Part shown: in pieces, positions 4,385 through 34,353 of the stretch
Layout of the letters: each line of letters starts with the position of its first letter
Numbering within the stretch: the first letter of the stretch is position 1
DNA from: Chloroflexia bacterium
GTDB lineage: Bacteria; Chloroflexota; Chloroflexia; QHBQ01; JADMIH01
Length of the DNA stretch: 42,358 nt
NCBI GenBank assembly: GCA_036389075.1
Contig: DASVQO010000045.1
Location: 1-42,358, forward strand
Direction of reading: 5' to 3'
The notes under the pieces: generated by a model
Told to the model about the DNA's origin: nothing
The model's database searches: none
What the model saw: the letters and a program-made list of their open reading frames with translations, nothing else
Made by a program: the position numbers and the translations under genes

Positions 4385-4406
4385 AGTCCGCGATGCGGTG
4401 CGTTAG

Positions 4407-4465: not shown

Positions 4466-4468
4466 TTC

Positions 4469-18821: not shown

Positions 18822-21800
18822 TCAGCGGGCACCTCGTGCGGGTGTCTGGCAGTTGGGGAAGAAGGCGAGTGACACGAACTTGGAAGCCTGGCCTCGTGTC
18901 ACGAAGTTGGTGGGACGGAAGTAGCTGCCCGGGCACGGCTCGCCCGCGCCCCCACACGAGTAGCCGCCCACCACACCCCTGGTGGATAGCCGCTCTATGT
19001 ACTGCCAGAAGGTATCGGAGGTGGGTACGTCCGCGAAGCTCCGCTGGCCCGCAGGCACAGGCTCGTTGAACTCCGCCGCCAATGCCACAAATTTGGACAT
19101 CTGCCCCCTCGTGACAAGCGCCTCGGGCTGGAAGCAGGGCGCTCCCGTGGCGGGACACCTGTCCTGTGTGTTGTACCCGCTCACCACTCCCCTGGACGCA
19201 AGCCTCTGTATGAAGATATAGAAGGTGTGAGTGGCAGGTACGTCGGTGAAGGTCACTTCAGCGTGAGACTCGTCAAAGCCAGCCGCATTGCTCACGATCT
19301 TCGCCATCTGCCCCCGTGTGATGTTATCCCCCGGCCTGAAGCATGGCGCTCCCGTCTCCGGGCACCTGGAGGGCGAGGTGTAGCCTGAGAGTATCTCACG
19401 GCAGGCGAGGCATCGCACGTTCTCGTAGAAGTTGTTGGAGGGTGGTACGTCCGTGAACTCGATGGCGCATGGCGTCGCGGTGGCCCCTCCCGGCGGTGTA
19501 GCGGTCCGTGTGTATGTTGGCGTTGAGCTAGGGGGCGTGCCTGTTGCCGTCCGGGTAGCCGTGCCTGTGTGGGACGGTGTGGAGGTGCTAGTTGGCGTGG
19601 GGGTGGGAGCGGACACCAGGAAGCAAGGAGAGAACTCGGAGCTATTACCATCGGGGTCGATGGCCTTTGAGGTAATGTATTGCCCCACAGGCACCAGTTC
19701 GTCGAACGTCCTCGTGAAGCTCAAGCTATTGCCCGCGATGACTCCACCCAACTTGGTGGCCCCTTCGCCATGACCTGACGCGTCGCAAGTCACGCTACGG
19801 AAGATCTCGATATTGTACCCTGCCGGGTTACTATTACCCGTGCTGTCAAAGCTGCCTTCTACGGTCGTAGAGTTGCCAGTGGTAGTGACGCCGGTGAGTA
19901 TGGGGAAGTTTTGCAGGTTGTTGGGGCCTGTGTCTCCGTCTCCCGCATCGTTGGGTGTTACCCCATCGTTGCCCAGGTCTATCCCCAGGCCCGCGTTCGA
20001 GTGGGTGGTAGTGTCGAGGATCATGTTGCGGGTATCCTGGCCGCCGGTGAGAGACACCCCATCGCCCCCGTTGGAGTGAATGGAGTTGCTGTAGACCTTG
20101 TTACCGGTAGCGTAGTCGCCCGCGATAGTCACACCATCGCCGCCGTTATAGGCGATAGTATTGCCCTCCCCTTGCGAGGGGCCGCCAATCATGTGGTTGA
20201 TGGAGAACAGCGTGGGACTGCTCCCACCCTGTATGAGGACACCCGACTGTGAGTTGCCCAGGGCGCTGTTCCCCGACGCAGTTAGCCCAATAAGGTTACC
20301 GCGCACCGCGTTGTTCGACGTATCGTAGCTCAGGAGAACGCCGTGCCTGTTATTGCCGGAGATGACGTTAGGTGCCCCGGCACCACTTCCGCCTATCACG
20401 TTGCTACCGGCAATGCCCGTCACCGACGTCCCGGAAATCGTCACGCCATCCTGTGAGTTGCCCAGGTCCGCCGTGCCGGCCTTATCGGTGCCTATATAGT
20501 TCCCCTGCACCACGTTGCCGGGATAGGCACCGATGTAGATGCCGCTCGCATTGTTGCCGGAAATCAAGTTGCGTGCGCCCGGCGTCGTGCCCCCGATGGT
20601 GTTGGATGAACTGAGTGCAAACACCCCGTGCCTGCCATTCCCCAGGTCCTGGATGCCGCTGGAGTCGGTGCCGATGAAGTTCCCCTCGATCCTGGTGTTG
20701 AAGCCCCCGTTGTCGTCGTCACCCAGGCTGATACCATCACGGCCAAAGCGGCTGATGATAAGCCCACGCACCGTGCTACTGTGGGCGTGAACTCGCAGGC
20801 CATCTGTATTTGCGCCTGCCAGGCTGCCGTCCAGCAAGATGAGAGGCTGGGCATTGTTGCCGGTAGCCAGTGTGTTGGGGGCGCTCCCCGGCTGGGTATA
20901 GCCGTCTATCGTCAGTATGTCGCCTATGATAGGGAGCGGGCTTGCCGGAGTTATGGTATGCACACCGGTGCCCGCTATCGAAAAGCTGATACCGTCCGCA
21001 CCCCCGTTGCTGTTGGCATCGAGGAGGGCCTGGCGGAGGGAGTCGACACCGCTGTCGTTGGTATTAGCCACCTCGTAGTACACCCTGACGCAGTTGGAGA
21101 ACTCCGAGGTGCTGCCTGTGGGGTCAGTCATCGTGGCCGTGATGAATTGGCCTCCCAGTCCCGTCAGTGCGCGGTTATGGCTGAGGGTCAGGTTACCGCT
21201 CGAGTCGGTGAGCTGCAGGCCTGACTGGAAAAGGAAGGTCTGCCCCTCGCCATTACCTGACGCATCGCAGTAGTCGCTGGCGTAATACCTTACAGTGAAC
21301 AAAGTGTTTGGGGTGCCGTTGAAAGTGCCCTGGACAACAGTGTGGGAAGAATTGCTGGCGGCGAAAGTGAGCACTGGGAAGTTCTGCAGGTTGTTGGGAC
21401 CGGCGTCTGCGTCGAGTGCATCGTTGGCAGTCACGCCATTGCTTCCGAGCAGGTCTATTCCCTGGCCGCCGTTGGTGTGAATGGAATTTTGCAAGATTGC
21501 ATTGCGAACACTATCGTTAACAACGACAGCCACGCCGTCATCGCCGTTAAAGGCGATTACATTGCTCAGCGTGCCCGCGAAGGCGCTGTCGCCAACCGTG
21601 TTGCCTGAGGCGCTGGATATGTTGACACCCGTAAGGCTGTTCCCGAGGGCGGTGGTGCCGTCCCTCTTGGTGCCAACCAGGTTACCCTGCACCACATTGC
21701 CCAGGTTAGCTCCTGACGTTCCTGAGATGCTGATCCCGTAGGCGCCGTTGCCTGAGATGAGGTTGCGGGCCGCTGCCGTCGAACCCCCCACAGTGTTAGT

Positions 21801-22562
21801 CATGGAGCTAGAGATACTGATGCCCGAACCGGTGTTACCGAGGTCTGAGGTGCCGAAAGAATCGGTGCCGATGAAGTTCCCCTCTGTCCGGTTGCCGGAG
21901 CTTCCTGATAACTGTATCCCGTGCCGCGAAAAACGGTTGATGATAAGGCCCTTCACTGTGCTGTTGCCTGCCGTGATTGACAGACCGTCGGCGTTGGCCC
22001 CCGCCGCGCTTCCATTCAGCTCTATTAGGAGCGTGGCGCTGATAGCGCCGGGCGCAACCACTGTATTGGGGATGGAGCCAGGCTGAGTGTACCCATCGAT
22101 AGTTACGGGGCTGGTAATACCGGGAAGGGCGCTCTGCAGGTTTATGGTCTTGACGGCACCGGGCGTACCACCAATGTTGAAAGCTATGGTGTCCGCGCCC
22201 GCGTTGTTATTCGCATCTATAATGGCCTGGCGCAACGTGCCGGCTCCGCTGTCGGCGGTGGAGGTAACGGTAAAGGTTGTGGAGACAGACGGGGCCAGGA
22301 TGCCGTTCAACGTAGGTGCCTTCAACCTCGAACCGAGGATCCCCTGCCCGCTGTCCACTCGTCCCACCGCGCTGGAGAACCCGCTTGAACTTGATGGGAC
22401 CAGGGTCCTGGCTGTTGCGTGCTCGCCCAGCAAAAGGAGAGAGGATAGCAGCACCAAAACACCCGCCAGGATGAAAGCGGTATAGCGCCTGCGTCTGTGG
22501 TCAAGAGACTCTAATACCTTGTTCGAGACACCGTACTTTGCGTGCGCCCACTTTGCAGACAT
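18822..22562 (-). CDS. Large secreted parallel beta-helix protein with three C-terminal Cys-containing SLH-like repeats
   Basis: The start is set at ATG 22562, preceded by GAGGAG. The tracked start at 22649 adds 29 unlikely residues. A TM/signal segment (AFILAGVLVLLSSLLLLG) is present. Two modules of about 410 aa each open with T..DSG.G(T/S)LRQA..DAN.N.GAD.I.F.I and close with GPNNLQNFP(V/I)LT. A Pro/Thr linker follows, then 3x F.DVP....F(Y/W)..I..L..RG..(S/G)GY...C....PCFRP....TRGQ..K. Confidence 0.85.
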   Translation of the reverse strand: MSAKWAHAKYGVSNKVLESLDHRRRRYTAFILAGVLVLLSSLLLLGEHATARTLVPSSSSGFSSAVGRVDSGQGILGSRLKAPTLNGILAPSVSTTFTVTSTADSGAGTLRQAIIDANNNAGADTIAFNIGGTPGAVKTINLQSALPGITSPVTIDGYTQPGSIPNTVVAPGAISATLLIELNGSAAGANADGLSITAGNSTVKGLIINRFSRHGIQLSGSSGNRTEGNFIGTDSFGTSDLGNTGSGISISSSMTNTVGGSTAAARNLISGNGAYGISISGTSGANLGNVVQGNLVGTKRDGTTALGNSLTGVNISSASGNTVGDSAFAGTLSNVIAFNGDDGVAVVVNDSVRNAILQNSIHTNGGQGIDLLGSNGVTANDALDADAGPNNLQNFPVLTFAASNSSHTVVQGTFNGTPNTLFTVRYYASDYCDASGNGEGQTFLFQSGLQLTDSSGNLTLSHNRALTGLGGQFITATMTDPTGSTSEFSNCVRVYYEVANTNDSGVDSLRQALLDANSNGGADGISFSIAGTGVHTITPASPLPIIGDILTIDGYTQPGSAPNTLATGNNAQPLILLDGSLAGANTDGLRVHAHSSTVRGLIISRFGRDGISLGDDDNGGFNTRIEGNFIGTDSSGIQDLGNGRHGVFALSSSNTIGGTTPGARNLISGNNASGIYIGAYPGNVVQGNYIGTDKAGTADLGNSQDGVTISGTSVTGIAGSNVIGGSGAGAPNVISGNNRHGVLLSYDTSNNAVRGNLIGLTASGNSALGNSQSGVLIQGGSSPTLFSINHMIGGPSQGEGNTIAYNGGDGVTIAGDYATGNKVYSNSIHSNGGDGVSLTGGQDTRNMILDTTTHSNAGLGIDLGNDGVTPNDAGDGDTGPNNLQNFPILTGVTTTGNSTTVEGSFDSTGNSNPAGYNIEIFRSVTCDASGHGEGATKLGGVIAGNSLSFTRTFDELVPVGQYITSKAIDPDGNSSEFSPCFLVSAPTPTPTSTSTPSHTGTATRTATGTPPSSTPTYTRTATPPGGATATPCAIEFTDVPPSNNFYENVRCLACREILSGYTSPSRCPETGAPCFRPGDNITRGQMAKIVSNAAGFDESHAEVTFTDVPATHTFYIFIQRLASRGVVSGYNTQDRCPATGAPCFQPEALVTRGQMSKFVALAAEFNEPVPAGQRSFADVPTSDTFWQYIERLSTRGVVGGYSCGGAGEPCPGSYFRPTNFVTRGQASKFVSLAFFPNCQTPARGAR

Positions 22563-23063
22563 TGTAAACTCCTCAGCTATTCCGCGGGTCCCGGCTTGTG
22601 TGGTCACAAACAAGCTCTGCTGTTCAGAACGAATATATGGCGGAAGCAACCGTTATGAAAGTCCCTAATGTACGGGAACAGGGCAGCCCGGGCCAAGATC
22701 ACCTCGTCTATAGAGAAAAGGGATTCAGAGGCAACGCACAGAGCAATATGTCATGCAACGCCAAGACTGCCGGCTCTCTTAGTACCCGAAGATTGAGCAC
22801 GGTAGAGTCGCGTATGCGCGCCCAGGTAAAACCGATCGCACAAGGAGCAGATTCGGTAGCATCAAGTATAACCGACAAGCAGAGCTAATTTCAACAGCTA
22901 GATGGAGAAGCGTCTCGCAGGACCACATCAAAACCGGCAGGGGCTTCTGCTCCGGCAAAGGTTCAACCGGAATAGGGAGACGTCCTTAGGACATCCGCCC
23001 GAGAAGACGTACACTCCAGAGCCGCAACGTGATTGACGCCATAACTGAGTCCGACGCCAAACA

Positions 23064-23331: not shown

Positions 23332-25242
23332 TCACCCACCAGCCCCACCAGGAGGGACGCCAGAAGTGTCTCCGGTACCTGCTTCCGTAGGAGGGGTCCC
23401 AAGCCGCTGTCCACGCTGAGGCTCGGCTGCCTCTAATCGCTTGCGAACTTGCGCTACGTAGGCCGCACGTGCACCTACTTCCCTGTGCTTATACTCTTGT
23501 AAAAACGCCAGACCCGCTTCTAACAGCGGAACAGCCTGCGCCAAATGGCCCAACTTGGCGTGCTCGTCACCCAGGTTCCAGCTGGCGACGGCTTCTCCAG
23601 CTTGGTCGCCTATCTCCCCGGCAATTTCAAGCTGCTGTTCGTAATAGGGGATGGCTTGCCGCGAGTCCCCCAGATCGACGTAAACGTTTCCCAGATTGCC
23701 GAGGGCGACACTTTCTCCATGACGGTCCTTCAATTCGCGGGCAATTTCAAGCTGTTGTTCGTAAAAGGCGATAGCCTGATGGGAGTCATCAAGTGCCGCG
23801 TAAGCGTTGCCCAAATAGCCCAAGGCACTACTCTCCAGTTGACGGTCTCCGATTTCCTGGGCGATCTCCAACTGTTGCTCGTGATAGGAGCGGACTTGTT
23901 GGAGTTCGCCCATAGCAGCGGAGGCACGCCCCAGGGTGCCGAGGACCTTAGCTTCCCCAAGACGATCCCCGAATTCGCGGGTGACATCTAACAACTGCTC
24001 GTGGTAAGTGATAGTCCCGCGAGCATCTCCCAGGGCCATATGGGCGGTCCCCAGGATGCTGAGGGAGTTGCCTTCAGCGGCCCTGTTGCCGAAGTCCCGC
24101 GCTATCTTGAGGGCCTCGCTCGCATACTCTATGGCTTCTCGAACATCTCCCTGCAGAAGATGGGCACGGCTCATGTTGTCCAGCGCACTTCCTTCGCTAC
24201 GGCGGTCCGCAATGTCTCTCGCAATCTGGAGCCATTGCTCGTAGTAACCAATGGCTCGGGCGGTGTCACCTAGGGCCTCATAGGCCACTCCCAGGCTACC
24301 TAGGTCCTGGCCTTCAGCGCGGCGGTCTCCTATATTGCGGCTGACCTTCAGGGCGCGCTCATGGTAGGCAATGGCTCGCAGGAAATCTCCCAGGTCGGCG
24401 TAAGCGTTCCCAAGGTTTCCGAGGGCGTTACCTTCACCCCGCCGGTCCCCCAGTTCGCTCATGATAAGGAGCGCTCGTTCAGAGTGGGTAATTGCCTGCC
24501 AAGGGTCACCCAGTTCTGCGTAGGCCAGGGCGAGGTTCCCATGGGCGTTACCCTGGCCCCTGCGATCTCCCAATTCCTCTGCGATAGCAAGCGCCTGTTG
24601 GGAGCAAGTTATAGCCTGTTGAGGGTTTCGCAGGTCTGTATAGACCAGCCCCAGGTTGCCCAAGGCACCGGCTTCGCCGGCCCGATCCCCGATCTCACGT
24701 GCAATTACCAGGTGCTGCTCAAAACAGCTACGGGCTTGTTGAGGGTCGCCCATAGCCGTGTACGCCAGGCCGAGGTGGCCTAGTGCCACGCCTTCCCCAT
24801 GCCGGTTGCGGGCCGCACGAGCAAGCGCAAGGTGCTCCTGGTGATATTTGATAGCCCTATGTATATCGCCCAGCGCCAGGTAGGCGCTTCCCAGACTGCT
24901 CAGAAACCCACCCTCTGCCAAATTGCGCCCCAACCGCCGGGCGGCTGCCAGCGCGGCTTCGAGTTGGGAGATTCGCTCCTGCCGTTTGTCGTAGCGAACG
25001 TCCCCAATGTACGCAGTTCGGGTGGCATAGATGATCAACAAGTTATCTATGTCCGTATTCGTTCCAGGCGGTTGTGCAAGGAGCCAAGCCCAACCCATGT
25101 CTATCTGAGCGCGCTCCCCATCAAACTGCGCCAGTCCCGCGCGTTGTTCCGCGCCGCCCGCGCGGTATTGAACGTCCGCCTGAGCCACCACCTCAGCATA
25201 ATGCATCGCGACGCGACGGCCCGCCTCATAAGCACTCGGCAT
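23332..25242 (-). CDS. Tetratricopeptide-repeat protein (about 12 TPR units of 40 aa); sensor-arm half of a split STAND NTPase
   Basis: 636 aa. It has its own strong RBS (GAGGAGG, then 9 nt, then ATG). The N-terminus (HYAEVVAQADVQYRAGGAEQRAGLAQFDGERAQIDMGWAWLL) is the linker normally found directly after the NB-ARC winged helix. Reiterated units of the form GDRRGEG.ALGNLG.AY..LGD...AI.Y.EQ.L.IAREIGD follow. Confidence 0.85.
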   Translation of the reverse strand: MPSAYEAGRRVAMHYAEVVAQADVQYRAGGAEQRAGLAQFDGERAQIDMGWAWLLAQPPGTNTDIDNLLIIYATRTAYIGDVRYDKRQERISQLEAALAAARRLGRNLAEGGFLSSLGSAYLALGDIHRAIKYHQEHLALARAARNRHGEGVALGHLGLAYTAMGDPQQARSCFEQHLVIAREIGDRAGEAGALGNLGLVYTDLRNPQQAITCSQQALAIAEELGDRRGQGNAHGNLALAYAELGDPWQAITHSERALLIMSELGDRRGEGNALGNLGNAYADLGDFLRAIAYHERALKVSRNIGDRRAEGQDLGSLGVAYEALGDTARAIGYYEQWLQIARDIADRRSEGSALDNMSRAHLLQGDVREAIEYASEALKIARDFGNRAAEGNSLSILGTAHMALGDARGTITYHEQLLDVTREFGDRLGEAKVLGTLGRASAAMGELQQVRSYHEQQLEIAQEIGDRQLESSALGYLGNAYAALDDSHQAIAFYEQQLEIARELKDRHGESVALGNLGNVYVDLGDSRQAIPYYEQQLEIAGEIGDQAGEAVASWNLGDEHAKLGHLAQAVPLLEAGLAFLQEYKHREVGARAAYVAQVRKRLEAAEPQRGQRLGTPPTEAGTGDTSGVPPGGAGG

Positions 25243-25385: not shown

Positions 25386-26960
25386 TTAAGGAGTTAGCAA
25401 CGTGCGTGCGTGCGTAACGAGCAGCGCATGCAACCAGAAGCGCCCGGTACTAAGGGGTTCAAGCAGTCCGCGATTCACTAGTACGCGGATCGTTGGCTTA
25501 GGATCGGCAACCTGCCAAACGCTGCGGAGAGCGGCCTCATCAAACGTCGCGGGTTTTGGCGCGAGCGCGCCCAGATAGGCAAAAGAGTCTCGGGTTGCAG
25601 GGTCCAGCAGGTCGGTGCTCTTCTGCAACAGAGCGGCCACAGTTGGGAGAGTCTCCTTACTTATCTCCGCACGATCCGCCGGTGCCTGGGCCTCCAACAG
25701 ACGTGCCCCCTCACGAATCTCTTCCAGCAAGGTGGCAACGCTGAACCCCAGTTTGGCCTCACTTTGCAGCAAACGTCCCGCAACCTGGATCGCCAGAGGC
25801 AGTCCTTCGAGGTCTCGCACTAAGGATTTACTTGCATCGATATCTGTGGCAACGACACGAGGGGCCAAAACCCGTAGCAGATCCAATGCTGCTGTTTCGT
25901 TTAGAACGTCCAGCAAATAAATGTCATCGGGCGTGGGTGCAATTGCCTCGGCGACCACCGGCAGCCGTGTCGTGAGAAGCAAGGCGCAATCCCGACCCCC
26001 AACCTGAAAGGACACCGCATGCGCTGCTTCCCAGACATCATCAACAATAAGCAGCCGCCGCTGGTTGCGTAACAGGCCTGCCAACCGGACCGAGGCTTCT
26101 TCAATGGTGCTAGCGCTCTCCAACTCGGGGTGGCCCAATGCCCGGCCCCAGGCAGCTAGCTCGGCAAAGATAGCGGGCTGCTGGCCGAGGGAAGCCCACA
26201 GAACGCCGTCCGGGAACATCCGTGCAATGTCCAGATCGTGGGCCAGTGCAGCCGCGAGACTGGTCTTTCCAACTCCAGGCCACCCCCGCACCGTGGTTAG
26301 GACGTGGAGCGGCCCTGGCGCACTGGTGGCTACACTGATCCCCAGTCGGGCTTTCAACTCGCGCAGATCTTCATCTCGGCCAAGGAGTAGTGCGGGGATC
26401 GCGGGTGCGCTCCCCGGTGCTATAGCAACGGGGGGTACGGAAAGAGTTACATCTGCCCGCAATATCTGGTTGCCGTAGTCACCATGTACTTGTAGAAATA
26501 CCGGCGGGAAGTCCCCAGATTGCTCCGACCGATTCTCCCTACGTGATGGGGCTCGGCGTGCCGTATGGATAGAGGCGTCAGAGTGTTTACTCTCGTACTT
26601 GTCTGCTACGCGGCAGAGGTGCTCCCAATCGGAAAAGGTTACCTGGGCCTTATAAGCGTCCTTAAACTCACTCACCAACTTTCGAATTTGAGTGAGGAAG
26701 AACTGCTGTTGGGCCGTTCGCTCCGTTGCGTGGCCGGTAGGCGGATCGCTTTGGTCCAGCAGTAATCGAGCCAGACTCGCCAGGTAGCCGAGGGGAGGCG
26801 TAATCCGCCCACGCTCATAGTTGCTGACCGTGCTAAGAGTAACACCATAATGCTTAGCAGCAGCATCCCTGGTCTCAAATAGAGCGCGTCGTAACTTTAT
26901 AGCCAGGTCTGCTGGCTCCTCGCCTTCAGCAAATTCCAGAAGCTCCCACTTGTCGGGCAT
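25386..26960 (-). CDS. XRE-type HTH fused to an NB-ARC/STAND P-loop NTPase (no repeat arm)
   Basis: 524 aa. The N-terminal HTH reads AAKHYGVTLSTVSNYERGRITPP. Walker A is GWPGVGKTSLAAALAHD and Walker B is RRLLIVDDVW. LLLTTR and EGLPLAIQVAG are NB-ARC hallmark motifs. The ORF ends right after the winged-helix region. A GAGGTG RBS precedes the start. Confidence 0.85.
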   Translation of the reverse strand: MPDKWELLEFAEGEEPADLAIKLRRALFETRDAAAKHYGVTLSTVSNYERGRITPPLGYLASLARLLLDQSDPPTGHATERTAQQQFFLTQIRKLVSEFKDAYKAQVTFSDWEHLCRVADKYESKHSDASIHTARRAPSRRENRSEQSGDFPPVFLQVHGDYGNQILRADVTLSVPPVAIAPGSAPAIPALLLGRDEDLRELKARLGISVATSAPGPLHVLTTVRGWPGVGKTSLAAALAHDLDIARMFPDGVLWASLGQQPAIFAELAAWGRALGHPELESASTIEEASVRLAGLLRNQRRLLIVDDVWEAAHAVSFQVGGRDCALLLTTRLPVVAEAIAPTPDDIYLLDVLNETAALDLLRVLAPRVVATDIDASKSLVRDLEGLPLAIQVAGRLLQSEAKLGFSVATLLEEIREGARLLEAQAPADRAEISKETLPTVAALLQKSTDLLDPATRDSFAYLGALAPKPATFDEAALRSVWQVADPKPTIRVLVNRGLLEPLSTGRFWLHALLVTHARTLLTP

Positions 26961-27016: not shown

Positions 27017-27040
27017 CTCCTTGCGCAAGGTTGCGCAAGG
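27017..27040. promoter_or_regulatory. Tandem palindromic boxes CCTTGCGCAAGG / TTGCGCAAGG (candidate HTH operator)
   Basis: ccttgcgcaaggttgcgcaaggtt contains the self-complementary octamer TTGCGCAA twice at a 10-bp period. It lies 57-80 bp upstream of the HTH-NB-ARC start, in the divergent intergenic region. Confidence 0.45.
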
Positions 27041-27181
27041 TTTCAGCACCCAGTAGTAGGATAGCAGTGCATGCAGGTGAATGGAGATCAGACGTACAGG
27101 AGTTGATCCGAGGTCCCACGAACTTTCACCACCTGCAAGCAACCTGAACCCGTCTCAAGTAGTCATTGTGGATCATTCACT

Positions 27182-27231: not shown

Positions 27232-27413
27232 AAATCTAGCTACCGCACACGGGGCAGGCGGCCAGCAGGCTATTAACATCACACCCTGTTCACCTTAACT
27301 TGACACTAAGTGTATCACAGACACTTGTCGGTATCTCGGTGCGCAAGATATGGGCGACAGGTCAGTACAGGGCAACAACACCCTTAAGCTGTTCGAAACA
27401 AAGGAGAAACATC

Positions 27414-27632
27414 GTGAAAGTAGACCTTACACAACTCAAAGAGACGCCTCGTGGCGCGGGCAACGCGCTATGGACCGGTGCGCCGGAACGTACTGCGGCG
27501 ACTAACATGGACCAATACCTCTGTGGCTGCCTCAATAGCTATGGGGTGCCCCAGATCTGGTCGGGCCGCAGCCCAGAGCATGCAATAGCGTACGGCCATG
27601 GTAGTGCCACGTTCGCGATGCTTGGCCGTTAG
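27414..27632 (+). CDS. Candidate RiPP precursor peptide (72 aa)
   Basis: AAGGAG (27401-27406) is followed after 7 nt by GTG 27414. The product is MKVDLTQLKETPRGAGNALWTGAPERTAATNMDQYLCGCLNSYGVPQIWSGRSPEHAIAYGHGSATFAMLGR. It lies directly upstream of, and on the same strand as, the cyclodehydratase. The track shows a longer 110-aa version from 27300 that lacks an RBS. Confidence 0.45.
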   Translation: MKVDLTQLKETPRGAGNALWTGAPERTAATNMDQYLCGCLNSYGVPQIWSGRSPEHAIAYGHGSATFAMLGR

Positions 27633-27705
27633 GTTTAGATGCCGCCTGGATGTAGTGGAGCACCCATCCGCTGCGCTACCCAGGCGGCAGCAATAGAATG
27701 AGTCG

Positions 27706-27738
27706 GGTTCTGCTGGGACTTGCGTGCTCAGCAGAACC
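27706..27738 (+). promoter_or_regulatory. Stem-loop between precursor and cyclodehydratase (10-bp stem), plus a second one at 27640-27688
   Basis: ggttctgctg (27706-27715) pairs with cagcagaacc (27729-27738). tgccgcctgg (27640-27649) pairs with ccaggcggca (27679-27688). Neither has a U-tract. Confidence 0.5.
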
Positions 27739-27758
27739 CCTCGAAAAAGGATGGTGCT

Positions 27759-30251
27759 ATGAGTAACAATCAACAAATCAATGAGGTTCTCGATCTCACC
27801 TACTCTTCGGTCCCCGATCTTGAGGTTATCCCCATCGAAGAGGGGAAATGGCTTTGCCACTCTGCTACCGGCAGCGTTCGGATCGCGGGGCCATCCGCCC
27901 AGCCGATGGTGGAGGAGATCATGCCATTATTGAAGAACGGGTGTTTGTGGTCGACTCTACTGGCGCAGTTCCCCGGTCTGGAACCGGCCGAGTTGCGGCA
28001 GACGCTGAATGGCCTGGTGGCCAGTGGAGTCCTCAGGTGCACCGCTGGCTCGCCTCCCGACCCGGCGCCGACTCTGGCGCCTCTCCTGGCTCTCCTTGGG
28101 GGTCTCGATGTGCCAGCCGACGTTGCCGCATCCCGTCTCGCAAACGCCCGAATCGTCATCATTGGACTGGAAGGGATAGGGGCCCATCTTGCCCTGCTGC
28201 TCGCGCGGTATGGCTTGCGGCGCTTCGTTCTAGTCGATCCCTATCCGTGCCAGCCCGGCAACCTGCCGTTGCTGCCAACCGGAGGACTGGAGGCGCTCGG
28301 CCAACCTCGGCAAACATTGGTCGCCCAGGCCCTGCACGATACAAGCCCTGGCGGGAAGGACCTGGATATTACTCTCGGTCCGCCGAACCTTTCTCCAGAA
28401 TATGTGGAGCAGGTGGTCGCCGGTTGCGATTGCGTGGTCAGTTGTTTCGAACGTGGCTTTTCATCGGTCCATCACTGGGTAAATCGTGCCAGTCTGCGAG
28501 CTGGGGTACCTGCTGTGTATGCTGAAGCGCTGGGCCACCAGGGCTGGGCAGGGCCACTTGTCCTTCCCTACCGGACGTCCTGTTATACGTGCTACCGGAT
28601 GCGCGCTGTAGCTTGCGCCCCCGACATTACGGCTGCCCTAGCGTATGAGCAGCATACGGATGGGCAAAAACTGCCTCGATTGCACGCCCGCCCTGTCCTT
28701 CCCAGCCTGTTGCCTCAACTCGCCGGTCTGCTTGCTACGTCGGTCTTGCAAGTGGTACTGGGCCTTGACCCGCCAGCCCTTGCTGGACGGGTAATGGAGT
28801 GTCAGGCACTCACGCTTGTGGCAACGGTACATCCGGTGTTACAACAGCCCGACTGTCCGGATTGTAGAGGTAGCGGCCCAAGAGGCCCTGCTCACCCCAA
28901 CCTGGCAGAGTTACTGGCGGGAGGCGATTCAGCCGTCAACGCGCTAGAGATTGCTCCTGAATTGATAAGTCCCGAAACAGGTATCATCCGGGAAGTCAGT
29001 TGGTACGAAAAGGATGTGGCGGAACCGCATTTACCGTATATCTGCCGGGTGACGTTTGCGAACCACCATTTTAGATTTGAGATTCCTGCGGAGCATCTGA
29101 CCAGCGGGGGGAAGGGGCTTACTCGGGACGTTGCGCTTGCAAGTGGGCTGGGAGAGGCTATAGAGCGGTACGCAGCCGACTGGGTGGATCCAGAGGTCAT
29201 TATTTATGCCCGGCGTGCTGACCTCGATGGCCCCAGCATGAACCCTGTAGATCTCGTGCTCTACGCTCCTGAGCAGTACGCAACGGTGCCTTATCACCCA
29301 TACGAGGAAAGCAGCATCCTGGGCTGGGTCCGCGGGCGCTCGCTCGTGACCGGAGAGTCTGTGTATATGCCAGCGCTGGCGGTTTTCCTGGGCTACCAGG
29401 TCCAGCGTCCCGAGGAGCACCTGTTTCTGGTCACCTCCAATGGCGTCGCCGCCGGGGGTAGCCTCGTTCGTGCCATCCTGGCAGGCACATATGAGGTAAT
29501 CGAACGGGATGCCTTGATGATTACCTGGTTCGCCACCCTACCCGCCCGGCGCGTGGATCCGTCCACCCACCCGGATACCGAGGTTCGCGCCTTATGCCGC
29601 GCTTACCAACGGCGAGGGGTAGAAATAGGCCTGTGGCGGCTCCCTACCGATCAGCCTTGCGCCGTCTTCCTCGCCCTGGGGCTGCACCACGGATCCAAAT
29701 CGGAGCCTGCGGTAATCGCGGGTGCTGGCGCCGACCTGGCGCCGGCAGCGGCCGCGCGCAAAGCCATCCTGGAGGTGGGCCAGATCCGGCCATCATACCG
29801 GCGGAGCCTACGCCGTCCCGACGTTCGCGAACTCATGGAGGCCCTCGTCAAAAATCCGCAAAGTGTCACCACAATGCACGACCATGGGCTGCTGTATTGT
29901 AGTCCTGACATGCGCCACGCCCTCGGTTTTCTGCTGGACCAAGAGCCTGACGTGCAGGAGTGGGGGCCACTTACCGCCGGTGATCCCACTATGCAGTTGG
30001 AGCAATTGGTGAACCATTTCCGCACGACGCAGAGAGAGTTGCTCTATTATAACCTGACCCCGCCCGATCTTGCCCGGTTGGGGCTAGCAGCCGCACGGGT
30101 CATCATACCTGGTTTTCAGCCGGTTACCTTCGGTGCCGAAGAGCCGCGTCGGGGTGGAGCACGCCTCTATGAACTGCCACACCAACTCGGTCTAGCCGCG
30201 TCCCCGCTGATGCCGGAAGATCTAAATCCCTACCCTCACCCATTTGACTAA
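27759..30251 (+). CDS. Fused RRE / E1(ThiF)-like / YcaO cyclodehydratase (TOMM C-D fusion)
   Basis: I prefer the ATG at 27759 (AAGGA RBS) over the tracked TTG at 27720, which lies inside a hairpin. The region of about 27807-28043 is PqqD-like RRE (beta-strands, then ..LEPAELRQTLNGLVASGVL). The region of about 28137-28875 is Rossmann-like, with IVIIGLEGIGAHLALLLARYG and the CxxC pairs CYTCY and CPDC. From about 28962 the YcaO domain begins (SGGKGLTRDVALASGLGEAIERYAA). The C-terminus is proline-rich, ..LNPYPHPFD. Confidence 0.88.
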   Translation: MSNNQQINEVLDLTYSSVPDLEVIPIEEGKWLCHSATGSVRIAGPSAQPMVEEIMPLLKNGCLWSTLLAQFPGLEPAELRQTLNGLVASGVLRCTAGSPPDPAPTLAPLLALLGGLDVPADVAASRLANARIVIIGLEGIGAHLALLLARYGLRRFVLVDPYPCQPGNLPLLPTGGLEALGQPRQTLVAQALHDTSPGGKDLDITLGPPNLSPEYVEQVVAGCDCVVSCFERGFSSVHHWVNRASLRAGVPAVYAEALGHQGWAGPLVLPYRTSCYTCYRMRAVACAPDITAALAYEQHTDGQKLPRLHARPVLPSLLPQLAGLLATSVLQVVLGLDPPALAGRVMECQALTLVATVHPVLQQPDCPDCRGSGPRGPAHPNLAELLAGGDSAVNALEIAPELISPETGIIREVSWYEKDVAEPHLPYICRVTFANHHFRFEIPAEHLTSGGKGLTRDVALASGLGEAIERYAADWVDPEVIIYARRADLDGPSMNPVDLVLYAPEQYATVPYHPYEESSILGWVRGRSLVTGESVYMPALAVFLGYQVQRPEEHLFLVTSNGVAAGGSLVRAILAGTYEVIERDALMITWFATLPARRVDPSTHPDTEVRALCRAYQRRGVEIGLWRLPTDQPCAVFLALGLHHGSKSEPAVIAGAGADLAPAAAARKAILEVGQIRPSYRRSLRRPDVRELMEALVKNPQSVTTMHDHGLLYCSPDMRHALGFLLDQEPDVQEWGPLTAGDPTMQLEQLVNHFRTTQRELLYYNLTPPDLARLGLAAARVIIPGFQPVTFGAEEPRRGGARLYELPHQLGLAASPLMPEDLNPYPHPFD

Positions 30252-30263
30252 CCAGGAGGTACC

Positions 30264-31046
30264 ATGTTTCGCGAAATGTTTCCTATTGCGTGGGCCTTCC
30301 ACCGCAATACCTCAATTCCACCCTATCGACTAGGCGGTCCGGGCGGGCTGTTCCCTAAGGAGCCGGTCCCGCCGTTCAAGGAATACAGCACAGCCGAACT
30401 GGTACCGTTGCCCAGCCCCGGCGAACTGAAGACCTCCCTCGGCGCGGCGATACAGGAACGGCTTTCCTGCCGCCAGTTCGAGGATCACCCTCTGCCTCTC
30501 ACCACTCTCGCCACCCTGCTCCACGCCAGCTATGGGATCCAAGATCAAGTCCTCTTGGATGAGCACGAAGTGCTCAGCCGCCCGGTGCCCTCCGGCGGTG
30601 GTCTGTACCCGCTGGAAGTCTATGTCCTCGTCCGCAAGGTTCAAGGTCTCGATCCAGGAATCTACCACTATGCGGTCATAGATCACACGCTGGAGAGGCT
30701 CGATTTGGCACCTGTGCCGGCGCCACGGCTGACCGAGTTATTCTTGGGGCAGTCTTATCCAGAGGATGCGGCGCTTGTAGTGGTGATAACAGCGGTCCTG
30801 GGGCGTTCGCTAAAAAAGTATGCCGACAGAGGGTACCGCTTGGTGCTACTGGAAGCCGGTCATCTTGTCCAGAACCTGAACCTTGTAGCCACAGCCCTTG
30901 GCTGGGGAAGTGTGAACCTGGGCGGCTTTTTGGACGATGAGTTGGGCGCGGTTCTCGACCTGGATCGCGAGGTGGAGGTACCAGTCTATGCGACTGCGGT
31001 CGGCAAACCTCGAGGGACGAGCGCTGATGTCCTACGGCAAGCCTGA
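30264..31046 (+). CDS. SagB-type FMN-dependent dehydrogenase (nitroreductase fold)
   Basis: 260 aa. It starts 12 nt after the cyclodehydratase stop, with a GGAGG RBS. Motifs: IQERLSCRQF (RxSxRxF-type), PSGGGLYPLEVYV, and LLEAGHLVQNLNLVATALGWGS. Confidence 0.85.
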   Translation: MFREMFPIAWAFHRNTSIPPYRLGGPGGLFPKEPVPPFKEYSTAELVPLPSPGELKTSLGAAIQERLSCRQFEDHPLPLTTLATLLHASYGIQDQVLLDEHEVLSRPVPSGGGLYPLEVYVLVRKVQGLDPGIYHYAVIDHTLERLDLAPVPAPRLTELFLGQSYPEDAALVVVITAVLGRSLKKYADRGYRLVLLEAGHLVQNLNLVATALGWGSVNLGGFLDDELGAVLDLDREVEVPVYATAVGKPRGTSADVLRQA

Positions 31047-31096
31047 GGCCGGGCCTTGATGCTGTACTCGCCGCGGAGAAGTGCAGTGTTGTTATG

Positions 31097-31144
31097 GGGA
31101 ATGCTGGTTAGGCACTCTGCGAAAGATGCCTAACCAGCATTCCC
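31097..31144 (+). terminator. Perfect 18-bp stem with a 12-nt loop, 50 nt after the dehydrogenase stop
   Basis: gggaatgctggttaggca (31097-31114) is the exact reverse complement of tgcctaaccagcattccc (31127-31144). No U-tract follows, so intrinsic-terminator function is not assured. Confidence 0.55.
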
Positions 31145-31449: not shown

Positions 31450-32160
31450 TTACCTATCGCTCCCGCCGCGCTGGCTACGCTCTGCTGAGGAGTCGCCGGG
31501 CCTGCATGCGTCCGCAGGGTGCTTTTGGGATTGGAAGGTAGGTTTCCGGCGCTTGGCAAGTTGCTCACCTTTAGTCATCCATCGGCAGTTCTCAGGCGTG
31601 TAATCCCCATCAGGGTCTCTTCTGCCCAAGCCGTATTCCGGCCCCGGCCTGGGTCGCATGTCCTCTAGGAACGCCTGGAAGCTCTCTCTCCAGCGCTCGC
31701 ATACCTTGATACCCCTGCCTCCATAGTAGGCGTAACCACCCGCTGTGGGTGTGCAGCAGCGCCGCTTCATTGACATCCACGCTGTATGCTCCGGCAAATT
31801 GGCAGTAGGCACACCGTACTTGTATGTCTCTGGGCGGCGTCTCGTGGTTCTGAGCTTGCGAGCGGCAGCATTGGCCTCGCGCTTAGCCTTCCTTCTTCGT
31901 TCCTCATAAACCTGGCCTTTAGGTGACCTACGCCACGCTGTCACTACTCTATTGAAGCGTTCCTTCTGTTCCGCCGACATGTTGGACCGCCTGCACTTGT
32001 TGTATTCTGCCAGGCATCGCTTGCACCTATGGTCTAGGCCGTCGCGGCTCCGTGCGTTACGGTGGAACTCTACCCGTGACTTGGGCACGCCGCACCTACT
32101 GCAGACTTTCATTTCTTGTAGAGAGGGACTGAGTCCATTAGGTTGTTCGTCCATGGGCAC
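31450..32160 (-). CDS. Phage-like Zn-ribbon / DNA-binding protein (family often annotated as HNH- or homing-endonuclease-associated)
   Basis: 236 aa. It has a CxxC...CxxC ribbon ([16 protein letters not shown]...[11 protein letters not shown]), a basic linker, then [26 protein letters not shown]...[26 protein letters not shown] recognise this pattern from phage and mobile-element ORFs, from memory. It starts with GTG at 32160 or ATG at 32154. Confidence 0.55.
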
Positions 32161-32874: not shown

Positions 32875-34353
32875 TTATCTTGACCCTACCTGAGACTGCG
32901 ACATGTAGACTATCTTCGCCGTCTGGCCGCGTGTGATGCTCACGGCGGGTCTGAAGTAGGGCAAATTCTGGGGCCCCACGCACGGTTCCTCCGCCCGGCT
33001 GCCGCACGCGTAGCCACTGATGATCCCACGCTCGGACATGCGCGCTGTGTGCTCGAAGAAGGCGTGGTTCGCGGGCACGTCCTCGAAGTGCTGCTCGCCT
33101 ACCCCTTCGGTGAAGTTGAAGGCCAACCCTGCGATCTTGGAGAGTTGCCCCCGGCTGACTGGTAGCCCCGGCCTGAAGTACGGCAGGTTGTCCGGTGCCA
33201 TGCACGGCTCGTCGGGTAGCTGGCCGCAAGGGTAGCCGCCGATGTTGCTTCGGTCCGAGAGCCTAGAGATCGGCTCGTAGAAGTTGCTACCCTCCGCCAC
33301 GTCCTGGAACTTGCGGCCCTCTACCGGCTCCGTGTACCCGGCGGCCATGGCCACTATCTTGGCTGTTTGGCCCCGCGTGACGTCGCTGTAGGGCCCGAAG
33401 CAGGGCACGTGGTTCGCAGCGGGGCAGGGCGGGGACGAGTTGTATCCTGAGATGACGTTTTGCTCGCTGAGGCTCAGCACCGGCTCATAGAAGTAATCAC
33501 CGGGACACACGTCCCTGTAGCGCTCACCGGGGCACCTAGGTGGTTCGGGGGTGGGTGTGGTGCAGGCGGGCTGGGAGAAGGTGAGCTTCAGCCCGAAACT
33601 CAGGCTGTTCTGCGTGTAGCAGGAGAACTGGCTAGCCTGCTCGCTGTTGCGCTGCACTCCTACCGTGGTGGTCTCACCGCCGCCTTCCACCGTGCCGTAG
33701 AGAACCTCAAAATCAGATCTGTTTTCGAAGAACTTGATCTCGAAGTTGACGCGGCCGGCACAGGTGCCGAGGTCGTATATGCACGCTCGCCACTCGATAT
33801 TGAACACCCTGGTAGGAGCACTGCCAGTTACAGAGGTCAATATGCCAAGGTCGGCGCCTGCTGCGGTGCGCATGTCGAGATCGTCCCAGTGGGGGAAGAT
33901 TGTGTACTCGTAGGCACTGGTAGGCAAGCACTCATTAAGCATGAAGTCGGTGTCGTTCTGGAGGCTTAGGAAGCCGTTAGACGAGACGTAGGCCTGGGTG
34001 AAGGTGCGGTCGTAGAGGCGGAGGGGGAAGGGGAAATAGAGTAGGCGGTTGCAGTCATCACACTGAGAACCAGGTATCAGGGTGGTGGCTGGCTCCAGAG
34101 TGTCCGTGGACGCTGTTATGACGTAGTCACTCAACTCCCCGCACGCAGGACCAGTCCCCTGGGAGACAGGCTTTAGTGCCGGGGGCGTTCTGGGTGCGCC
34201 CTTGGCAGAGTCGTTATATAGAACTTTCGCGCTTACCATTCGCGGTTGGGTCTCTACTCCAGCGTTAGCAGGGAGTATCTGTAGCAGGCATAGCGTGAGT
34301 GCAGCAATCGCAGAGATATACGTGTAAGTGCGCTTGGCAGAGGTCCTGTGCAT
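32875..34353 (-). CDS. Secreted surface protein with three C-terminal Cys-containing SLH-like repeats
   Basis: Signal peptide (ISAIAALTLCLLQILPANAG). The N-terminal domain of about 270 aa is of unknown function. It is followed by three repeats of the same F.DV....F(Y/F)....(L/M)S....I.GY.C.....PC....(Y)FRP...(V/I)(T/S)RGQ..KI type seen at the end of the 18822-22562 protein. Confidence 0.8.
   Translation of the reverse strand: MHRTSAKRTYTYISAIAALTLCLLQILPANAGVETQPRMVSAKVLYNDSAKGAPRTPPALKPVSQGTGPACGELSDYVITASTDTLEPATTLIPGSQCDDCNRLLYFPFPLRLYDRTFTQAYVSSNGFLSLQNDTDFMLNECLPTSAYEYTIFPHWDDLDMRTAAGADLGILTSVTGSAPTRVFNIEWRACIYDLGTCAGRVNFEIKFFENRSDFEVLYGTVEGGGETTTVGVQRNSEQASQFSCYTQNSLSFGLKLTFSQPACTTPTPEPPRCPGERYRDVCPGDYFYEPVLSLSEQNVISGYNSSPPCPAANHVPCFGPYSDVTRGQTAKIVAMAAGYTEPVEGRKFQDVAEGSNFYEPISRLSDRSNIGGYPCGQLPDEPCMAPDNLPYFRPGLPVSRGQLSKIAGLAFNFTEGVGEQHFEDVPANHAFFEHTARMSERGIISGYACGSRAEEPCVGPQNLPYFRPAVSITRGQTAKIVYMSQSQVGSR

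What the first reader, a model, noticed from the sequence alone, without database searches (positions are those of the whole stretch)
27414..31144. Minimal thiazole/oxazole-type RiPP cluster: fused RRE-E1-YcaO plus SagB dehydrogenase, with no protease, transporter or immunity gene
Seen in sequence:
- An 831-aa protein joins a PqqD-like leader-recognition region, a ThiF/E1-like Rossmann domain (GLEGIG, CYTCY, CPDC) and a full YcaO domain ending in the proline-rich PYPHPFD tail.
- After a 12-nt gap comes a 260-aa SagB-type nitroreductase-fold dehydrogenase (RLSCRQF, PSGGGLYP).
- A short RBS-bearing ORF and two hairpins precede the pair, and an 18-bp perfect hairpin closes it.

Established knowledge: E1-like/YcaO cyclodehydratase plus a SagB-type FMN dehydrogenase is the azoline-to-azole machinery of TOMM/LAP, cyanobactin and thiopeptide pathways.

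Inference:
- The operon is stripped down to A-CD-B. It sits in a lower-GC region next to a STAND NTPase and a phage-like gene.
- The only nearby precursor candidate is very poor in Cys/Ser/Thr, so the product class cannot be assigned to a described family from what I can see.
Basis: partly seen in the sequence, partly recalled or inferred. Interest (0 to 1): 0.8.

Follow-up and report, generated by a model that had tools for sequence, protein, structure and literature searches.

The report
Minimal thiazole-peptide operon with conserved precursor
This is a real, compact three-gene operon of a known type: a small peptide, a fused enzyme that turns cysteines into thiazole rings, and an oxidase.

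Summary
**Observation confirmed.**
- Window 27759-30251 (+) encodes an 830-aa RRE/E1-like/YcaO fusion. It passes TIGR03604 (307.6 vs 219.25 bits) and TIGR03882 (47.3 vs 36.9 bits).
- After a 12-nt gap, 30264-31046 (+) encodes a 260-aa SagB dehydrogenase (TIGR03605, 151.1 vs 78.4 bits).
No protease or transporter family was found in any ORF scanned across the 42-kb window.

**New findings.**
- The 72-aa ORF at 27414-27632 is a genuine, conserved precursor. Only 13 representatives exist among 1.84 billion proteins.
- All 13 share an N-terminal LxIxEL leader and an internal CxC. Nearly all also carry the full CxC(A/L)N(R/S)xG core and a C-terminal FAxLGR tail.
- The enzymes belong to a multi-phylum family of the same minimal layout. 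Its precursors, usually Cys-rich and about 105 aa, end in RFGGLG(G). At least 175 clusters exist, and every one that carries a source name is called 'hypothetical protein'.
- One Chloroflexia relative carries 11 tandem TCACANR units plus the RFGGLGG tail, which bridges the two precursor groups.
- All eight informative loci of the window subfamily sit next to HTH-NB-ARC/TPR STAND genes, which are probably cluster regulators.

**Verdict.** This is an uncharacterised linear azole peptide (LAP/TOMM) cluster that most likely makes a thiazole-X-thiazole peptide. It is a new member of a known kind and of moderate interest.

The parts
23332..25242 (-). TPR-repeat protein (636 aa), the separate sensor-like half of the upstream STAND pair
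   Evidence: Pfam TPR_12 at 322 bits, plus a MalT-like TPR region. TPR genes occupy the same position next to the NB-ARC gene in L001, L002 and L008.
25386..26960 (-). XRE-type HTH plus NB-ARC STAND NTPase (524 aa), divergently transcribed. Probably the cluster-situated regulator.
   Evidence: Pfam NB-ARC 68.6 bits, HTH_31 and HTH_3. It is 65% identical over its full length to the gene at the same position in L001. Orthologues are also present in L002, L008 and L091.
27021..27038 (.). Tandem palindrome TTGCGCAA-GG-TTGCGCAA in the divergent promoter region, a candidate operator for the HTH
   Evidence: It is the only match in the window, with 0 expected in 100 shuffles. The same pattern occurs at the equivalent site in L002. 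Related palindromes occur in L001 and L008.
27401..27406 (+). Ribosome-binding site AAGGAG of the precursor gene
   Evidence: Invariant in all six aligned subfamily loci, 7-8 nt before the start codon.
27414..27632 (+). Precursor peptide gene (72 aa, GTG start). Leader motif 'DLTQLKETP' at residues 4-12, core 'CGCLNSYG' at 27522-27545, C-terminal tail 'FAMLGR' at 27612-27629.
   Evidence: Translation. Conserved upstream of the enzyme gene in L001, L002, L006, L008 and L091. A profile search finds 13 representatives. The core and tail motifs each occur once in the six-frame translation of the window, both in this ORF.
27640..27739 (+). Two stable RNA hairpins between the precursor and enzyme genes (27640-27689 and 27705-27739). 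Probably an attenuator or transcript-stability element that sets the precursor-to-enzyme ratio.
   Evidence: Arms of 10 and 11 bp, both perfectly complementary. Fold energy -63.2 kcal/mol, z-score -4.8. A hairpin at the same place but with a different sequence occurs in all five other subfamily loci.
27759..30251 (+). Fused RRE / E1(ThiF)-like / YcaO cyclodehydratase (830 aa)
   Evidence: TIGR03604 307.6 vs 219.25 bits, TIGR03882 47.3 vs 36.9 bits, Pfam ThiF 83 bits and YcaO 237 bits. AlphaFold model with pLDDT 82. Foldseek top hits are LynD (E 1e-42), TruD and MusD. GEAxERY, EVxERD and the C-terminal PYPHPFD are invariant or nearly so among 16 relatives.
30264..31046 (+). SagB-type FMN-dependent azoline dehydrogenase (260 aa)
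   Evidence: TIGR03605 151.1 vs 78.4 bits. RxSCR, PSxG, Y186 and EAGH are invariant in 12 relatives, and K185 is nearly invariant. The nearest solved relatives are 3eo7, CyaGox, BmdC and McbC.
31097..31144 (+). 18-bp perfect hairpin closing the operon
   Evidence: Fold z-score -6.1. There is no T-run, so it is not a canonical intrinsic terminator.

Best explanation
This is a functional three-gene operon for a linear azole-containing peptide (LAP/TOMM).

**Proposed pathway.**
1. The 72-aa peptide is the substrate.
2. Its N-terminal amphipathic motif (DLTQLKETP; family consensus LxIxELNNTL) is bound by the N-terminal winged-helix RRE of the fused enzyme (inferred).
3. The YcaO domain uses ATP to cyclodehydrate Cys37 and Cys39 of the conserved LCGCLNSYG core to thiazolines (inferred from family membership).
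4. The SagB flavoprotein oxidises these to thiazoles (inferred). The product would carry a thiazole-Gly-thiazole unit and be 40 Da lighter than the unmodified peptide.

**Supporting elements.**
- The hairpins between the precursor and enzyme genes probably keep precursor mRNA in excess (inferred).
- The divergent XRE-HTH/NB-ARC gene and its TPR partner are the likely pathway regulators, acting at the TTGCGCAA tandem palindrome (inferred).
- Leader or tail removal and export, if they occur, rely on functions encoded outside the 42-kb window.

**Evolutionary placement.** The locus is a Chloroflexia-type, single-unit offshoot of a large unnamed multi-phylum family. Precursors in that family share an ELENQL-type leader and a C-terminal FxxLG tail.
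For: **Shown here.**
- The domains pass curated thresholds.
- Catalytic motifs are conserved in YcaO and SagB.
- The fold matches LynD, TruD and MusD over the full length.
- The precursor is conserved in position, RBS, leader, CxC core and tail in 6 of 6 subfamily loci with upstream DNA and in 13 library representatives.
- The core and tail motifs are unique to this ORF within the window.
- Relatives with enzymes 34-47% identical carry the same precursor/fused-cyclodehydratase/SagB layout. An upstream ORF ends in F-x-x-[LFM]-[GM]-x(0-1) in 34 of the 43 loci that have at least 1 kb of upstream DNA.
- L011 (enzyme 54% identical) has 11 TCACANR units (the last truncated to TCACAN) plus RFGGLGG.
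- The STAND partner is orthologous. A STAND gene is present in 8 of 8 subfamily loci that have usable flank.
- The hairpin before the enzyme gene keeps its place across loci while its sequence changes.

**From the literature.**
- E1-like/YcaO plus SagB is the azole-forming machinery of this peptide class (PMC4603692).
- LAP leader proteases are often encoded outside the cluster (PMC10885120).
- STAND regulators that carry NB-ARC or AAA_16 domains are commonly linked to biosynthetic clusters, including RiPP clusters (PMC12224297).
Against: - No chemistry was observed. The modification sites and product are inferred.
- Profile methods do not link the window's peptide to the large precursor family: hhalign gives probability 3.5%, and local HMMs do not cross-hit or hit L011. 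That link rests on enzyme orthology, position and shared motifs.
- No sigma-70 promoter or canonical terminator was found at the expected places.
- The window enzyme has Glu where most relatives have Asp232, in the E1-like domain.
- With no protease or exporter nearby, it is unclear whether a small mature peptide is ever released.
Confidence: 0.72

Rival explanations
1. The modified peptide is a signal rather than an antibiotic. The thiazole peptide, or its tail, would be sensed by the TPR domain of the adjacent HTH-NB-ARC/TPR STAND proteins, forming an autoregulatory peptide-receptor module.
For: - A STAND gene is present in 8 of 8 informative subfamily loci, and the upstream one is orthologous.
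- STAND ATPases with different output domains recur next to distant family members. These include LuxR-type in Kribbella, SARP/BTAD in L004, LuxR-type again in L015, and SAM-guanylate cyclase in the L044 protein, with L047 grouped with it by BLAST.
- No exporter, protease or immunity gene is conserved anywhere in the family.
- An operator-like palindrome lies in the divergent promoter.
Against: - STAND regulators are routine cluster-situated regulators and need not bind the product (PMC12224297).
- Chloroflexota and Actinomycetota genomes are rich in such genes (my own knowledge).
- About two thirds of the loci in the wide family show no STAND neighbour.
- There is no evidence of peptide-TPR binding.
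Confidence: 0.13
2. The conserved C-terminal FxxLG tail is an enzyme handle. It would dock in the unusually ThiF/MccB-like E1 pocket, or be removed by the YcaO domain itself in an ATP-dependent, MusD-like reaction. Either would explain why no protease is needed.
For: - The tail is the most widely shared precursor feature.
- The E1-like domain hits MccB and ThiF at about 1e-10 to 1e-11 and keeps the Zn-binding CxxC...CxxC pairs, D161, R185 and, in most relatives, the Asp aligned with the MccB/ThiF catalytic Asp.
Against: - The Arg of the E1 NLxRQ motif is lost (NLPLLP).
- The nucleotide loop reads GLEGIG with an invariant Glu.
- The window itself has Glu in place of that Asp.
- The last residue of the tail varies (G, S, K, R, H, E, Y).
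- Identity to MusD is only about 19%.
Confidence: 0.1
3. The locus is a decaying remnant. The Cys-rich core has eroded to two Cys, and the operon no longer makes a useful product.
For: - The core has 2 Cys, against 9-21 in most relatives.
- An HNH endonuclease gene sits where other subfamily loci carry a second STAND gene.
- The public gene call for the enzyme on this contig is truncated to 485 aa.
Against: - Both enzyme ORFs are intact and keep their catalytic motifs.
- Thirteen diverged peptides all keep the leader and the CxC, and nearly all keep the full core and tail, which indicates purifying selection.
- The RBS is invariant.
- Single-Cys variants also persist in Kribbella.
- The 485-aa call starts at an internal Met of an uninterrupted ORF.
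Confidence: 0.05

Closest known systems
Cyanobactin heterocyclases LynD, TruD and PatD, and the muscoride enzyme MusD
   Same: One polypeptide with the same three-domain order: RRE, E1-like, YcaO. These are the best sequence matches among solved structures (TruD 1.7e-30, MusD 3.1e-28, LynD 3e-26) and the best fold matches (LynD E 1e-42, target-normalised TM 0.67). The proline-rich C-terminus is shared.
   Different: - Identity is only about 19-21%.
- No PatA/PatG proteases were found, and the precursor shows no recognisable cyanobactin recognition cassettes by inspection.
- The oxidase is a stand-alone SagB rather than a PatG-fused domain.
- The E1-like domain is closer to ThiF/MccB.
- The host is not a cyanobacterium.
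Linear azole-containing peptides such as microcin B17 and klebsazolicin
   Same: A ribosomal precursor is modified by cyclodehydratase plus SagB/McbC-type dehydrogenase (McbC hit at 2.2e-12). The leader protease may lie outside the cluster, as TldD/E does for these peptides.
   Different: - By my own knowledge, microcin B17 uses separate B, C and D subunits and carries export and immunity genes.
- McbD was not hit at E <= 0.001.
- Here there is one CxC unit instead of a Gly/Ser/Cys-rich core.
- A conserved C-terminal tail is present here.
'Mobilisin' group of the 2015 TOMM census (PMC4603692)
   Same: That group is described as having only the B protein and a fused CD, with a short nearby peptide low in Cys/Ser/Thr that automatic searches missed.
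   Different: - Mobilisins are reported from Mobiluncus, Rhodococcus and other Actinobacteria.
- The one listed precursor (..GGCCCCCTTCC..) is unrelated to this one.
- The motifs GPCN and ELENQL are absent from that paper's precursor table.
- Sequence membership could not be tested here.
Unnamed multi-phylum 'ELENQL ... INECxCGPC ... RFGGLG' precursor family found here
   Same: The fused cyclodehydratase (34-47% identical) and SagB are orthologous, and gene order is the same. The precursor has an N-terminal amphipathic leader and a C-terminal FxxLG tail. L011 bridges the two groups.
   Different: - The window peptide is 72 aa with 2 Cys, against about 105 aa with 9-21 Cys.
- It lacks the AYxKV and CGINDC blocks.
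- Profile comparison is not significant.

Membership tests
TOMM/LAP azole-forming system | YcaO cyclodehydratase of the SagD family (TIGR03604) | tested here: met
   307.6 bits against a cutoff of 219.25, covering residues 452-830. Pfam YcaO 236.6 bits. GEAxERY and EVxERD are invariant.
TOMM/LAP azole-forming system | E1-like 'C' partner domain (TIGR03882), fused or separate | tested here: met
   47.3 bits against a cutoff of 36.9. Pfam ThiF 83.1 bits.
TOMM/LAP azole-forming system | N-terminal leader-binding winged-helix domain (RRE) | tested here: inconclusive
   No sequence HMM hit. The AlphaFold model has four short strands, three helices and a strand at residues 15-96. The full-length Foldseek alignment to LynD spans about 860-874 columns. 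Binding was not tested.
TOMM/LAP azole-forming system | SagB-type FMN dehydrogenase (TIGR03605) with the Lys-Tyr motif | tested here: met
   151.1 bits against a cutoff of 78.4. K185 is nearly invariant and Y186 is invariant. The functional importance of the Lys-Tyr motif is from my own knowledge.
TOMM/LAP azole-forming system | Adjacent precursor peptide with heterocyclisable residues | tested here: met
   The 72-aa ORF with the conserved CxC core.
TOMM/LAP azole-forming system | Azol(in)e rings actually present in the product | not testable with these tools
   Needs mass spectrometry of the co-expressed peptide.
Cyanobactin pathway | PatA and PatG subtilisin-like proteases, and a precursor with recognition cassettes | tested here: not met
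   No protease family was found in any scanned ORF of the window. By inspection, the peptide shows no recognisable cyanobactin recognition cassettes. This is not a cyanobactin cluster.
Heterocycloanthracin / thiopeptide-type systems | N-terminally truncated fused cyclodehydratase plus a separate Ocin-ThiF-like F protein (PMC4603692) | tested here: not met
   The enzyme is full length with its own N-terminal domain. No F-protein-like ORF was found in the window.
Mobilisin (PMC4603692) | Sequence grouping with the Mobiluncus and Rhodococcus D proteins | not testable with these tools
Only the verbal description matches.
Known precursor families (NHLP, Nif11, heterocycloanthracin, streptolysin S and others in NCBIfam and Pfam) | A significant match of the precursor to a curated model | tested here: not met
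   No hit for the window peptide at E <= 1. Only non-significant chance hits for relatives.
Anti-phage defence systems (PADLOC) | A match to a defence-system protein model beyond generic domains | tested here: not met
   Only weak generic hits to E1, TRIP13 (P-loop), TPR and oxidoreductase models.
STAND-class transcription regulators (MalT, LAL and SARP-NB-ARC types) | DNA-binding domain plus STAND NTPase plus TPR sensor | tested here: met
   HTH_3/HTH_31 plus NB-ARC in 25386-26960, and TPR with a MalT-like region in 23332-25242, encoded as two adjacent ORFs. Regulation itself was not tested.

The most novel reading that the evidence does not exclude
The window represents an unnamed RiPP family spread over many phyla. 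Its precursors share a C-terminal FxxLG tail, and its clusters never carry a protease, exporter or immunity gene. In Chloroflexia the core has shrunk to one CxCANRxG unit and the operon is genetically locked to HTH-NB-ARC/TPR STAND proteins. On this reading the thiazole peptide would be a cell-internal or autocrine ligand for a STAND receptor rather than an antibiotic, and its tail would be handled by the ThiF-like or YcaO domain itself.
Probability: 0.13. Interest if true: 0.75.

Novelty: new member of a known kind. Interest (0 to 1): 0.4.

Why it matters
- The locus turns an 'orphan' minimal YcaO cluster into a defined, testable system. The substrate gene, the likely modification sites (Cys37 and Cys39), the likely recognition elements (leader and tail) and a candidate regulator with its operator are all identified.
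- It exposes a precursor family of at least 175 sequence clusters, spread over many phyla. The family has no model in Pfam or NCBIfam and carries no name in any source.
- The single-unit Chloroflexia version is the simplest member. That makes it a convenient model for asking what the conserved tail does, and why these clusters dispense with proteases and exporters.
- It does not change what is known about azole biosynthesis.

Tried and rejected
- **Profile link between precursor groups.** Comparing the window-type and the large precursor families by hhalign gave probability 3.5%, aligning the leader only. Local HMMs of either group did not hit the other group or the L011 repeat peptide. Homology of the peptides is therefore argued from context and motifs only.
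- **Curated precursor models.** NCBIfam and Pfam scans of precursors gave nothing significant.
- **Defence systems.** PADLOC gave only hits to generic-domain models, so the defence-system reading was dropped.
- **Structured RNAs.** Rfam at gathering thresholds over the whole window gave no hit.
- **Promoters and terminators.** The consensus scan found nothing at the expected places. Its few hits lie inside genes and are no more than shuffles give.
- **Literature.** Six searches found no description of this precursor family. The 2015 census families were read and none fits, although 'mobilisin' sounds similar in words.
- **Active E1 domain.** I considered that the E1-like domain might be a working adenylating enzyme. 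I rated this unlikely because the NLxRQ Arg is lost and the nucleotide loop carries an invariant Glu.
- **Horizontal transfer.** GC content does not single out the cluster as an island.

Full report
**1. The observation**

The window has an uninterrupted ORF at 27720-30251. The likely start is the ATG at 27759, which follows AAGGA. This gives 830 aa, identical to public protein P0037.

- Pfam places ThiF at residues 125-368 (83 bits) and YcaO at 452-787 (237 bits).
- NCBIfam gives TIGR03604 (SagD-type cyclodehydratase) at 307.6 bits against a cutoff of 219.25. It gives TIGR03882 (E1-like leader-binding protein) at 47.3 bits against 36.9.
- Twelve bases downstream, 30264-31046 encodes a 260-aa protein that hits TIGR03605 (SagB) at 151.1 bits against 78.4.
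- The short ORF 27414-27632 starts with GTG, 7 nt after AAGGAG.
- Two perfect hairpins (27640-27689 and 27705-27739) lie between it and the enzyme gene. An 18-bp perfect hairpin (31097-31144) follows SagB.
- All are far more stable than shuffled sequence, with z-scores of -4.8 and -6.1. None has a T-run.
- Pfam scans of 26 large ORFs across the window found no protease or transporter family.

The enzyme is 830 aa, not 831. The 'lower GC' is a gradient across the window rather than an island.

**2. The enzymes look functional**

I aligned the window enzyme with 15 relatives that are 41-72% identical to it. The YcaO nucleotide and Mg motifs (GEAxERY, EVxERD) and the proline-rich C-terminus are invariant or nearly so. 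The four Cys of the E1-like zinc site are also invariant.

An AlphaFold model has mean pLDDT 82 and pTM 0.79. It aligns over its full length with LynD (E 1e-42, target-normalised TM 0.67), then with TruD and MusD. MccB follows for the N-terminal half.

Residues 15-96 form short strands followed by three helices. This is the layout of a leader-binding winged helix. No sequence model detected this domain, so the RRE claim is supported only at fold level.

In SagB, RxSCR, PSxG, Tyr186 and EAGH are invariant in 12 relatives, and Lys185 is nearly invariant.

Identity to any solved relative is only about 20%. McbD was not hit at all.

**3. The small ORF is a conserved precursor**

The enzyme has only 22 close homologues in 5.8 billion clustered proteins, mostly from metagenomes. 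The ones with a source organism name are from Chloroflexia. I fetched their contigs.

In every locus with upstream DNA (L001, L002, L006/L007, L008, L091), a small ORF sits just upstream of the enzyme gene and behind an invariant AAGGAG. These peptides align with the window's. The initiator Met, the two Cys of a CxC, and the Phe-Ala and Gly of the C-terminal tail are invariant, and indels are in frame.

A profile of five of them was searched against 1.84 billion representatives. It found 13 proteins, all 69-73 aa, with the consensus M(D/N/S)LxIxELNNTLKxVR ... CxCANRxG ... FAxLGR.

In the window's six-frame translation, the core and tail motifs each occur once, both in this ORF. So the peptide is poor in Cys, but its two Cys are the most conserved residues.

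**4. A much larger family**

A scan of one genome per species found fused enzymes 34-47% identical in many lineages:

- Herpetosiphonaceae
- Actinomycetota (Kribbella, Micropruina, Georgenia)
- Bacteroidota (Ginsengibacter, Leeuwenhoekiella, Dyadobacter)
- Pyrinomonadaceae
- Polyangiaceae
- Planctomycetaceae
- Several Proteobacteria

All-against-all clustering of neighbouring ORFs in 50 loci shows what recurs broadly: only the enzyme, SagB (32 direct calls plus 9 loci where a shadow ORF masked it), the precursor, and STAND-type ATPases. No protease or transporter cluster recurs beyond genus-level synteny.

The upstream ORFs are about 100-160 aa long. They contain:

- a KKLELRIxELENQLK leader
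- an AYxKV block
- a Cys-rich core, often with CGINDC and INECxCGPC
- a C-terminal RFGGLG(G) tail

An ORF ending in F-x-x-[LFM]-[GM]-x(0-1) lies upstream in 34 of the 43 loci that have at least 1 kb of upstream DNA. Kribbella versions have a single Cys.

A profile of 18 such peptides finds 175 clusters. Where any source names them, they are 'hypothetical protein', and none has a Pfam domain. NCBIfam and Pfam have no model for them.

**5. The link between the two precursor groups**

Profile methods do not connect them. The link is contextual:

- The enzymes are orthologous.
- The peptide gene holds the same position and orientation.
- Both groups have an amphipathic N-terminal motif and an FxxLG-type tail.
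- L011 is a bridging case from a Chloroflexia MAG, with an enzyme 54% identical. Its contig-truncated upstream ORF reads 11 tandem TCACANR units (the last truncated to TCACAN), then SDRFGGLGG and a stop. That is the window-subfamily core motif repeated, joined to the large-family tail.

On this basis the window's peptide is best read as a single-unit version of that repeat precursor.

**6. The STAND neighbours**

The divergent gene 25386-26960 encodes an XRE-type HTH plus NB-ARC. The next gene, 23332-25242, encodes TPR repeats with a MalT-like region.

The HTH-NB-ARC protein is 65% identical over its full length to the gene at the same place in L001. This is about as diverged as the enzymes, which are 69% identical. 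It has orthologues in L002, L008 and L091.

Every subfamily locus with usable flank (8 of 8) has at least one such gene. Most also have a second HTH-NB-ARC-TPR gene downstream. The window has an HNH endonuclease gene there instead.

Distant family members also sit next to STAND ATPases with other output domains:

- AAA_16 plus LuxR-type GerE in the Kribbella sp. protein of L025. Four further Kribbella or related actinomycete loci group with it by BLAST.
- SARP/BTAD plus AAA_16 in L004, and an AAA_16-TPR-GerE protein in L015.
- SAM plus guanylate cyclase plus AAA_16 in the L044 protein, from a Pseudomonadota MAG. L047, from an alphaproteobacterium, groups with it by BLAST.

The divergent promoter region carries a tandem palindrome, TTGCGCAA-GG-TTGCGCAA. 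It is unique in the window, with 0 expected by chance. It recurs at the equivalent site in L002, with variants in L001 and L008.

The ordinary reading is that these are cluster-situated regulators. NB-ARC-containing SARPs and LuxR-AAA_16 proteins are known to associate with biosynthetic clusters, including RiPP clusters (PMC12224297). PADLOC gave no sign of a defence system.

**7. Most likely mechanism**

1. The leader is bound by the RRE.
2. The YcaO domain performs ATP-dependent cyclodehydration of Cys37 and Cys39.
3. SagB oxidises the thiazolines to thiazoles.

All three steps are inferred from family membership and motif conservation. None was observed.

The hairpin before the enzyme gene is conserved in place but not in sequence across six loci. 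This fits an element that sets the precursor-to-enzyme ratio.

A missing protease is not unusual for this class. Microcin B17 and klebsazolicin use TldD/E, which is encoded outside their clusters (PMC10885120).

Two less likely readings remain open. In one, the peptide is a ligand for the STAND sensor. In the other, the conserved tail is handled by the enzyme itself, either by docking in the ThiF/MccB-like pocket or by MusD-like ATP-dependent removal. The E1-like domain keeps several ThiF residues, but it has lost the NLxRQ Arg and has an invariant Glu in its nucleotide loop. I therefore consider adenylation unlikely.

**8. Comparison with known systems, and novelty**

The locus works like a linear azole peptide pathway and meets the testable defining features of that class.

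- It is not a cyanobactin cluster: no PatA/PatG proteases were found and the precursor shows no recognisable recognition cassettes.
- It is not of the heterocycloanthracin or thiopeptide type: the enzyme is full length and there is no F protein.
- It is not like microcin B17: by my own knowledge that system uses separate subunits, and McbD was not hit.
- The 'mobilisin' group of the 2015 census is described in similar words (B plus fused CD, with a Cys-poor peptide). Its listed precursor is unrelated, and membership could not be tested here.

I found no paper describing the precursor family.

**Verdict.** This is a new member of a known kind: an uncharacterised, well-delimited LAP family with an unusually simple representative. 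Interest is moderate. It is a good model system and a natural-product lead, but it is not surprising to a specialist.

Noticed in passing
window 31450-32160 (-): A 236-aa HNH endonuclease of phage type (phrog_3377, E 2e-34) sits directly after the operon. In L001, L002, L006, L008 and L009 a second HTH-NB-ARC-TPR gene occupies this position, so this may be a replacement by a mobile gene.
   Followed up: partly
window 27066-27141: An inverted repeat, CAGGTG ... about 50 nt ... CACCTG, lies upstream of the precursor gene. It is conserved in L001, L002 and L008. RNAalifold predicts 17 pairs, 5 of them with compensatory changes, but from only 4 sequences. It could be a 5'-UTR structure or a pair of operator sites.
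   Followed up: partly
window 27759-30251: The public record of a contig of the window's exact length (42358 bp) carries the enzyme only as a 485-aa product starting at an internal Met (P0039). The ORF is intact, and other assemblies call the full 830 aa. The N-terminal RRE/E1 half is probably missed or split in that annotation.
   Followed up: partly
L011 1-376: The precursor gene consists of at least 11 near-identical 33-nt repeats encoding TCACANRxGxx, and the contig ends inside the array. Assembly may have collapsed or cut it, so the true copy number is unknown.
   Followed up: no
L006 2304-4292: In this subfamily locus a CHAT (caspase-like) domain protein replaces the upstream NB-ARC gene.
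   Followed up: no
L042, L045, L046, L048 (about 3500-5990): The Rhodobacteraceae and alphaproteobacterial branch of the enzyme family has a roughly 620-aa radical SAM protein directly upstream (Pfam confirmed on the L042 protein only) and no tail-bearing precursor. It looks like a different sub-type.
   Followed up: no
L004/L005 5721-5972: An actinomycete relative (enzyme 42% identical) has no SagB gene downstream. Its upstream peptide has one Cys and no FxxLG tail, yet it is weakly recognised by the large-family profile (E 0.002).
   Followed up: no
window 18822-22649 (-) and 32875-34353 (-): Two S-layer-homology proteins, one 1275 aa with beta-helix repeats, flank the region. Genes from 34.5 to 42 kb form a lower-GC polysaccharide cluster with an epimerase, glycosyltransferases and a Wzy-like protein.
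   Followed up: no
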